Assembly: GCF_009914755.1 (NCBI RefSeq)
Contig: NC_060946.1
Strand: one strand, 5' to 3'
DNA length: 64,000 nt
From: the human T2T-CHM13v2.0 reference genome, Homo sapiens
This document shows, one piece after another, positions 38,163 to 40,287 of the stretch (position 1 is the first letter of the stretch; every line of letters begins with the position of its first letter). Both the position numbers and the translations under genes were made by a program. The notes below the pieces were generated by a model. The model was not told the origin of the DNA, searched no databases, and saw nothing but the letters and a program-made list of their open reading frames with translations.

Positions 38163-39020
38163 TTTTTTTTTAGACAGAGTTTTGTTCTGTTTCACAGGCT
38201 GGAGTGCAATGGCGCCATGTTGGCTCACTGCAAACTTTACCTCACGGGTTCCAGCGATTGTCCTGCCTCAGCCTCCCAGGTAGCTGGGACTACACCACAC
38301 TGGGACTGCACCAGCTGCCACCACGCCTGGCTAATTTTTTGTAGTTTTAGTAGAGACAGGGCTTCACTGTATTGGCCAGGATGGTCTTGATCTCCTCACC
38401 TTGTGATCCTCTTGCTTTGGCCTCCGAAATTGCTGGGATTACAGGCCTGAGCCAAGATCCATATTTTTTAAATGAAGAAAAATTTCAAAGGTACTCTGCT
38501 TGGTACAATAATCAAATATGTATATTGAGGAATAAAACATAACCATGAAACATATTTATAACTGCATATGGAAAATACAGAGGATAATTTTTTAAATAAC
38601 AAATTTTGAAAGCATTAACTAATAATTTGAAAAGATCGCATTTGACAGGCCAGTATGAACATACCTCGATTGGAGGAACACAGGTTCCCCTTAAGAAAAA
38701 TCAAAATCAGGGAAAATGAACCCACAAAAGTTCAATCTGCTCTGACCTTTGAAAAACTCAGCCCAGACAGTGGCACTTATGACCAAGGGCAGGAGATTCT
38801 AATCCCATCACCATGGCGATAGGGCATAAACATTCCTGGGTGAAGGCACAATCCACATTGTGAGGTCCTACTGCTGCCATGCAGACAGGTGTGCTTTTAC
38901 ATGGACCGGAAGTTCATTGAAGGCTCAGTGTTTTTTTTCAAAAACTGAATCCCAAACCCACACATTATTATGCTGTGCTTCTTAAAATAAGTTATGAGAT
39001 GGGAAATAGGGCACCCCCAA
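38163..39020 (-). repeat. HSat1B unit 8 (terminal): antisense Alu + HSATI block joined to unique sequence
   Basis: Same cassette. It is followed by caaatatagccaatagggag... rather than an AT-rich expansion. Confidence 0.9.
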
Positions 39021-39097
39021 ATATAGCCAATAGGGAGAGTTTCAAATTGAGGAAAGGCACAACTGATATGTTGAGAATAAACAGAGATTCCATTCTG

Positions 39098-40287
39098 TTT
39101 TTTCTTTTTCAACTTTTATGTTAGATTCAGGGTCTACATGTGCAGGTTTATTACCTGGGTGTATTGTGTGGTGCTGAGGTTTGGGGTGTGAATGATCCCA
39201 ACACCCAGGTACTGAACATGGTATTCAGCAGTTTTTCAACCTTTTCCTTCCTCCCTCCCCCTCCTAGCAGTCCCTAGTGTCTATTTTCACCATCTTCATA
39301 TCCATGGGTACTCAGAATTTAGCTCCTACTTATAGGAACATGAGGCGTTTGTTTTCTGTTACTACATTAGTTCACTTCCTGGATTCCAGCTGTAGCCATT
39401 TTCCCTCAAAGAATATAATTTCATTCTTTTTTGTGGCTGCATAGTATTCCATGGTCTATATGTACCACATTTTTATCCAGTCCACTGTTGATAGTCCACT
39501 GTTGATGGGCACCTAGGTTGATCCCATGTCTTTGCTAATGTGAATAGTGTTGCAATAAACATACAAGTGCATATGTCTTTTTGGTGGAATGATTTGTTTT
39601 CTTTTGGATACATATTCGGTAATGAGGCTGCTGGGTTGAATGTTAGTTCGGTTTTATGTTCTTTGAGAAATCTCCAAATTGCTTTCCACAGTGGCTGAAC
39701 TAAATTACATTCCCACCAAAGGTGTATAAGCATTCCCTTTTCTCCTTATCCTCGCCAGTATCTGCTATTTTTTTTTTTTTTACTTTTTAAAAATAGCCAT
39801 TCTGACTGGTGTGAGATAATATCTCATTGTGGTTTTGATTTGCATTTCCCTCGTGATTAGTGATGATGAGCATTTTTTTCATGTTTGTTGGCTGCATGTA
39901 TGTCTCCTTCTGAGAAGTGTCTATGTCTTTTGCCCCTTTTTAAATGGGGTTGTGTTTTGCTTGTTGAATTATGTTCCTTATAGATTCTAAATATTAGACC
40001 TTTGTTGGATGCATAGTTTGTGAATAATTTCCCCCATTCTGTAGGTTGTTTACTCTGCTGATGGTTTCCTTTGCTGTGTGGCAGCTCTTTAGTTTAATTA
40101 GGTCCCATTTGTCAACTTTTGCTTTTGTTGCAATTTCTTTTGAAGTCTTAGTCATGAATTATTTCCCATAGCCCATATCCAGAATGGTACTTTTGAAGTT
40201 TTTCTTCCAGGTTTATTTTAGTTTGAGGTCTTAAATTTAAATCTTTAATCCAACCTGAGTTAATTTTTGTATATGGTGAAAAGGTGA
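39098..40287 (-). mobile_element. Old primate L1 3' end (L1PA13-16/L1PB-like), 5'-truncated
   Basis: Antisense 3' UTR ttagattcagggtctacatgtgcaggttt...tgctgaggtttgg. The ORF at 39473-39733(-) resembles the L1 ORF2 C-terminus (HLWWECNLVQPLWK...CTCMFIATLFTLAKTW). Subfamily is uncertain. Confidence 0.88.

What the first reader, a model, noticed from the sequence alone, without database searches (positions are those of the whole stretch)
38990..39110. The terminal cassette preserves a pre-expansion junction: possible birthplace state of the satellite
Seen: in units 1-7, gaaatagggcaccc..a(a)atata runs into 1-2 kb of AT-rich DNA. In unit 8 the same motif reads gggcacccccaaatata-gccaatagggagag... and continues as complex unique sequence into an old L1. 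Inference: 'HSATI' is ordinary single-copy flanking DNA, and the short aaatata is the breakpoint/microhomology that was joined to the AT tract during tandem duplication. The window may thus show the seed locus, or a segmental-duplication copy of it.
Basis: partly seen in the sequence, partly recalled or inferred. Interest (0 to 1): 0.7.

Follow-up and report, generated by a model that had tools for sequence, protein, structure and literature searches.

The report
Birthplace of human satellite HSat1B traced
The edge of this small satellite array keeps a join that is also found in unrepeated DNA on chromosome 22q, so the HSat1B/DYZ2 satellite (14 Mb of the human Y) likely began as ordinary DNA that an Alu insertion and a TA repeat turned into a tandem unit, and this window is a later copy of half of that seed.

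Summary
Observation confirmed. The motif ends 8 HSATI blocks; 7 run into AT tracts, the 8th into ~75 bp of unique DNA and an L1-like element.

The junction looks ancestral, not a deletion scar. It occurs at 9 CHM13 sites. One (chr22:23.91 Mb) has a single HSATI block with both flanks, no Alu and no AT tract. An older paralog (chr22:32.83 Mb, 74-81%) has the same join. Rooted on such paralogs, the single block is sister to all arrayed units (100/98).

Arrayed copies carry one shared Alu at a TTTT/AA site with a likely 14-bp target duplication. Their TA tracts hold an inverted ~25-bp piece of the ancestral left flank. The same left flank forms the arms of a 595-bp palindrome in LCR22-B (PATRR22 size).

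Y units nest inside acrocentric ones (Y-outside rejected, p≤0.0006), against the Y-first reading of the T2T-Y paper.

The window is not the seed: its left flank is replaced by HSat1A, and it is 99.6-99.8% identical to 13p/21p copies.

No non-human genome was available, and Babcock 2007, the key prior paper, could not be read.

The parts
39003..39025 (+). End of the terminal HSATI block, with aaatata (39019-39025), the point where internal units switch into the TA tract
39026..39097 (+). Unique ancestral right flank; contiguous with HSATI at L010 and at the old paralog L016 (window 39004-39096, 74% over 93 bp, E 6e-11)
39098..40270 (-). Old L1-like interspersed repeat (end approximate), shared with L010 and absent at this point in L016
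   Evidence: family name not tested with a library
38456..39016 (+). HSATI block of unit 8; 89.7% to the single-copy block; early-branching lineage with the 14p terminal unit
38163..38455 (-). Antisense Alu of unit 8; all 34 sampled unit Alus form one clade
38456..38469 (+). Right copy of the likely 14-bp target-site duplication, ending in a T run before AA (unit 7's copy at 36643 is identical to the empty site)
37209..38161 (.). AT tract of unit 7
37278..37301 (-). Inverted copy (24/24) of the ancestral left flank inside the AT tract; related pieces lie in units 1-6 (e.g. 35409-35443, 33/35; 23296-23334)
22388..38162 (+). HSat1B units 1-7 (Alu, HSATI, AT tract); units 1-5 group with the large 14p, 15p and Y arrays
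1325..21847 (.). HSat1A (42-bp) array standing where the ancestral left flank would be

Best explanation
The unit-8 junction is shared with unrepeated DNA on 22q and is likely the original right edge of the locus from which HSat1B/DYZ2 arose, carried here on a recent segmental duplication. Shown: an empty single-copy site (chr22:23.91 Mb), modules with both flanks around 3-4 units (chr13:13.70 Mb, chr22:19.27 Mb), one shared Alu, and an inverted left-flank piece in the TA tracts. Inferred order: (1) a low-copy segment gained an L1 and was duplicated; (2) in one copy an Alu inserted antisense just before the HSATI block by target-primed reverse transcription; (3) the left target duplication and Alu tail seeded a (TA)n tract, which is self-complementary and folded back to copy part of the left flank in reverse; (4) a strand ending at aaatata annealed in that TA tract, making the first tandem unit; (5) unequal exchange added and shuffled units, and modules spread to 13p, 14p, 21p and 22p; (6) one derived unit type expanded into the large 14p, 15p and Yq12 arrays.
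For: Junction at 9 sites, none on Y. L010 has one full block, no Alu and no AT tract, and is contiguous with window 38456-40526 at 88%. Old paralogs L016 and L015 have the empty left site, and L016 has the right join. L010 is sister to all arrayed units (100/98; 99/98; left flank 99/98) and is the best genome-wide match of L016 after itself. Unit Alus form one clade, 100/100. The block starts at the same base after the Alu in 8 of 8 window units, at a T-run/AA site. Inverted piece in 7 of 7 internal units and not in unit 8. Y-outside trees rejected: p 0.0006, 2.6e-5 (HSATI) and 5.9e-5 (Alu). The ancestral-type 22-mer has 0 of 36 hits on Y, while the derived 21-mer has 5213 hits.
Against: No non-human genome was searched. 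All 9 sampled modules that keep the left flank have a half-Alu with a rearranged ~40-bp insert as first element, so the left target-site copy is never seen beside a full Alu and is inferred. Breakpoints inside (TA)n cannot be placed. Terminal unit bodies differ by 6-7% while their flanks differ by 2-3%, so units were exchanged or mutate faster. Branching among early arrayed units is weak (92/77, 82/77). In the Alu-only tree the 15p block sits in an unresolved group with Y, so some acrocentric arrays could be Y-derived. AU groups were named after the first tree was seen.
Confidence: 0.85

Rival explanations
1. Secondary junction: a pre-existing satellite inserted or was deleted next to unrelated DNA, and the single-block site is a collapsed array. 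Delihas 2018 reads the 22q11 motif as derived from a satellite.
For: Array ends are often rearranged. Delihas lists LINC01658 (the likely L010 gene) among genes with the motif.
Against: Two paralogs at 70-81% identity keep HSATI joined to the left flank without the Alu, and L016 also keeps the right flank. L010 branches outside all arrayed units, and L010 plus the terminal acrocentric units as a clade is rejected (p 0.0099).
Confidence: 0.04
2. Y-first: HSat1B arose on Y from a PAR1 AluY and seeded the acrocentrics (Rhie et al. preprint).
For: Published Alu tree topology (passages). 15p Alus group with Y Alus at 100/99, unresolved.
Against: Y units are nested and carry the derived inverted piece; the Y-outside tree is rejected three times; Y has no junction and no ancestral-type 22-mer. 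A review reports Babcock's finding that the repeat is on ape autosomes but not ape sex chromosomes. Only 9 Y units from 5 blocks were in the tree.
Confidence: 0.04
3. Same seed locus but another order: L010 once held the Alu and lost it by precise recombination between target duplications, or the TA tract and tandem copy arose in one complex template-switch event, not stepwise.
For: The first element in every left-flank module is a complex rearrangement. The order of fold-back and duplication is not observed.
Against: The empty state of L010 matches both older paralogs, so no loss is needed.
Confidence: 0.07

Closest known systems
HSat1B / DYZ2 (HSATI-Alu-AT composite; Rhie et al. 10.1101/2022.12.01.518724, Hallast et al. 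10.1101/2022.12.01.518658, passages read)
   Same: Same three-part ~2.4-kb unit; window units 1-5 group with Y units.
   Different: Those passages give no unique-DNA seed; Rhie et al. infer Y-to-acrocentric spread, the reverse of the rooted trees here.
FAM230C / TBTA module of LCR22 (Delihas 2018, PMC5906017, passages read)
   Same: Three HSATI/Alu/AT repeats plus an extra 170-bp HSATI piece in FAM230C match L013; EIF3F pseudogenes lie in the 5' half, as in this window.
   Different: Delihas infers that the motif came from a satellite; here the module is the likely source of the satellite, and the 23.91-Mb copy has no Alu or AT tract.
PATRR22 (about 595 bp; PMC7999016, passages read)
   Same: A 296+3+296-bp palindrome at chr22:20,742,517-20,743,111, inside LCR22-B.
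   Different: Its arms are the same left flank plus TA tract whose ~25-bp inverted piece sits in HSat1B units; I did not see this link in the papers read.
Babcock et al. 2007 Genome Res 17:451 (not readable; known from citations)
   Same: Tripartite repeat on 22q11, acrocentrics and Yq12; Y copies recent.
   Different: Unknown whether it already names the empty site or the Alu-insertion origin.

Membership tests
HSat1B/DYZ2 | Tandem ~2.4-kb unit of AT tract, truncated Alu and HSATI block | tested here: met
   8 Alu+HSATI cassettes spaced 1.8-2.9 kb
HSat1B/DYZ2 | Homology to Y DYZ2 units | tested here: met
   Y blocks align over the whole HSATI block and nest with units 1-5 at 100/99
FAM230 segmental-duplication module | Right (FAM230C 5') flank contiguous with the array | tested here: met
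   window to 44036 matches the 13p module at 93% over 6.9 kb including array DNA; flank K2P 2.8%
FAM230 segmental-duplication module | Left (FAM230C 3') flank present | tested here: not met
   L010 left flank has no collinear match in the window; HSat1A abuts the array
Alu insertion by target-primed reverse transcription | Empty orthologous or paralogous site | tested here: met
   L010, L015, L016
Alu insertion by target-primed reverse transcription | L1 endonuclease site (T run followed by AA; consensus recalled) and A tail | tested here: met
   T run then AA after the 14-mer in L010 and units 6-8, eroded in units 1-5; T-run tail in 8 of 8 units
Alu insertion by target-primed reverse transcription | Two intact target-site copies around one full Alu | tested here: inconclusive
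   right copy clear; left copy dissolved in the TA tract, partly kept in L013
Seed locus of the satellite | Single copy, both flanks, orthologous in outgroup species | not testable with these tools
   G000 has no relatives here; in-genome paralogs used instead. The window itself lacks the left flank; L010 has one block and both flanks
Alu subfamily (AluSc8 or AluY) | Diagnostic positions | not tested
   AluSc8/AluYm1 in Delihas, AluY in Rhie

The most novel reading that the evidence does not exclude
One Alu insertion in a 22q11 FAM230 duplicon founded both the HSat1B/DYZ2 satellite and the PATRR22 translocation hotspot. The pre-insertion site survives at chr22:23.91 Mb, thousands of DYZ2 units still carry an inverted relic of the seed's left flank, and this window's array records the succession of unit types from the oldest (unit 8) to the type that expanded on Yq12 (units 1-5). 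This is not yet described in print.
Probability: 0.5. Interest if true: 0.75.

Novelty: new member of a known kind. Interest (0 to 1): 0.62.

Why it matters
Few large human satellites can be traced to a base-level birth event. Here the empty site, short both-flank arrays and megabase arrays coexist in one genome, which makes satellite birth testable with ape and macaque T2T assemblies. It would reverse the Y-first direction proposed for HSat1B, show that the Repbase/Dfam 'HSATI satellite' is captured unique DNA, and tie Yq12 heterochromatin to the palindrome behind t(11;22) through one TA-tract fold-back mechanism. The junction has no known function; the value is evolutionary and mechanistic.

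Tried and rejected
1. Cross-species test: no relative genomes are held; older in-genome paralogs were used instead.
2. Window as the seed itself: rejected. There is no left flank, and the right flank is 0.2-0.4% from four 13p/21p copies.
3. Window units as one local expansion: rejected (AU p 6e-40).
4. HSat1A derived from the HSat1B junction: weak and uneven. Shuffles reaching the observed score were 0, 5, 0, 10, 25, 8 and 18 of 200 for the 7 units tested, and dinucleotide shuffles do not control for TA runs. Not claimed.
5. Literature: ten searches listed no paper whose title or abstract start names a single-copy seed. Passages of Porubsky et al. (PMC13103302; one section read in full) note a motif shared by PATRRs and 13p/14p/21p but give no origin. 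Term searches in Hoyt, Makova (62), Solar (27) and PMC9690962 gave nothing on HSat1B origin. Babcock 2007, Kurahashi 2007 and Kato 2012 were not held. Supplements were not read, including Hallast Fig. S75 (DYZ2 tree) and Porubsky Fig. S10; they may bear on novelty.
6. 7 of 11 blind Y stretches held no HSATI block.
7. Earlier scan findings were not available.

Full report
Observation. Window 22.4-39.0 kb holds eight cassettes of antisense Alu plus a ~560-bp block (HSATI), 88-91% alike to unit 8, separated by AT tracts. The end motif occurs 8 times against 0.25 expected. Seven copies run into 0.95-2.05 kb of AT DNA; the eighth runs through aaatata into about 75 bp of unique DNA and then an old dispersed repeat. 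The array is HSat1B, the DYZ2 family of Yq12 (unit anatomy as in Rhie et al., and Hallast et al.; passages read).

Other copies of the junction. Window 38900-39120 matches full length at 9 sites: the window, two on chr21, three on chr13, one on chr14, chr22:19.27 Mb (93%) and chr22:23.91 Mb (89%). A 20-mer over the join finds the same 9 among 29 hits, none on Y; the other 20 are scattered 1-2-mismatch hits.

The empty site. At chr22:23.91 Mb (L010) there is one full HSATI block, no Alu before it and no AT tract, contiguous with window 38456-40526 at 88%. A 170-bp partial copy lies 1 kb upstream. By position and length this is probably the start of LINC01658 in LCR22-F (inferred from Delihas's hg38 table). 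Its left flank has 14 matches in the genome. Two modules keep both flanks around a short array: chr13:13.70 Mb (three units, matching the published FAM230C layout) and chr22:19.27 Mb (four units). Seven more LCR22 copies keep the left flank.

Polarity. Two much older paralogs act as outgroups. L016 (chr22:32.83 Mb) has left flank, HSATI 4-476, an unrelated Alu, HSATI 496-564 and the right flank; it matches window 39004-39096 at 74% (E 6e-11). L015 (chr12:121.06 Mb) has the left flank and HSATI 4-256. Both are empty where the satellite has its Alu. So HSATI is captured low-copy DNA and the unit-8 join predates the satellite.

Trees. The HSATI tree used 52 of 63 full blocks (11 near-identical rows from L017, L036, L026 and L027 dropped), one partial block and the two outgroups. 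L010 is sister to all arrayed units (100/98). Adding two proximal Y end-block units and one large-14p-array unit leaves this unchanged (99/98). Unit 8 branches early (its exact position is weakly supported), units 7 and 6 lie further in, and units 1-5 join the 14p, 15p and Y arrays (100/99). AU tests reject Y outside all autosomal units (p 0.0006 and 2.6e-5), L010 with the terminal acrocentric units (p 0.0099) and window monophyly. These groups were named after the first tree was seen. An Alu-only tree (34 unit Alus, 5 ordinary Alus as root) makes unit Alus one clade and again rejects Y-outside (p 5.9e-5), but leaves 15p unresolved with Y. Short arms and Yq12 mutate about tenfold faster than autosomes (Lin et al., passages), which makes dating unsafe.

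How the unit was likely built. In 8 of 8 window units the Alu is followed by the first bases of the empty site's block, a 14-mer ending in a T run before AA, and the Alu's T-run tail abuts the TA tract. This fits target-primed insertion with the left target copy dissolved into (TA)n; L013 keeps part of it. Every internal window unit (7 of 7), and 10 of 11 Y blocks scored, carries within about 70-90 bp of the HSATI end an inverted piece of the left flank: 24/24 in unit 7 and 33/35 in unit 6. The ancestral form occurs 36 times, only on chr13, 14, 21 and 22. A derived form shared by Y and the large acrocentric arrays, and close to the form in window units 1-4, occurs 5213 times; 36 listed hits are on acrocentrics and the rest are apparently on Y. 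In LCR22-B the same left flank and TA tract form a 296+3+296-bp palindrome, the size given for PATRR22. The simplest reading is a fold-back in the self-complementary TA tract followed by a tandem duplication whose right end is aaatata. The order and exact breakpoints are inferred.

What the window is. Its right flank is 0.2-0.4% from four 13p/21p copies, 1.1% from 14p, about 3% from the both-flank modules and 8.3% from L010. Its left end abuts HSat1A, as does the 14p copy. The terminal Alu+HSATI differs from other modules' terminal units by 6-7% while the flank differs by 2-3%, so the cassette body was likely exchanged and only the join is a clean relic. By recalled primate divergences (about 6-7% to macaque, 3% to orangutan) the insertion would fall very roughly 12-30 million years ago; this is uncalibrated.

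Prior knowledge. The three-part unit, its presence in LCR22/FAM230C and on acrocentrics, and a recent Y expansion are known. Delihas derives the 22q11 motif from a satellite, and Rhie et al. derive acrocentric copies from Y; the data here point the other way. Ten searches and the passages read showed no description of the empty site, the target duplication or the inverted relic, but Babcock et al. 2007 and several supplements could not be seen.

Verdict. A real feature and a largely correct inference. The mechanism (transposon insertion, microsatellite growth, tandem duplication) is of a known kind; the base-level origin of HSat1B appears to be new or little noted. Confidence in the explanation 0.85, interest 0.62.

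Noticed in passing
L017:1-6788 (chr22:20.72-20.74 Mb): A near-identical tandem array of 813-bp units (half-Alu, HSATI, short TA) of at least 25 copies lies next to the 595-bp palindrome: a second, very young satellite from the same seed.
   Followed up: partly
window 7-1265 and 1325-21847: HSat1A switches strand at about 1270-1325, with a short AT spacer between the two orientations.
   Followed up: no
window 23229-23330 versus 1325-21847: The HSat1B junction plus TA tract resembles the reverse-complemented HSat1A monomer; the shuffle test was weak and inconclusive.
   Followed up: partly
L010:3359-3531: A 170-bp older partial duplicate of HSATI 306-479 lies 1 kb upstream of the block in the empty site and both-flank modules; it matches the 'extra HSATI' of FAM230C.
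   Followed up: partly
window 55001-56500: GC-rich island (66-68%), about 17 kb from the junction, where the FAM230C 5' end would lie by Delihas's coordinates.
   Followed up: no
window 22659-25063: Predicted lncRNA LOC124908443 has exons inside HSATI/Alu of units 1-2, like the HSATI-derived exons reported for FAM230 genes.
   Followed up: no
L013:2643-2830 and LCR22 left ends: The first element after the left flank is always a half-Alu preceded by a ~40-bp insert partly copied from HSATI 490-510: a shared complex rearrangement.
   Followed up: partly
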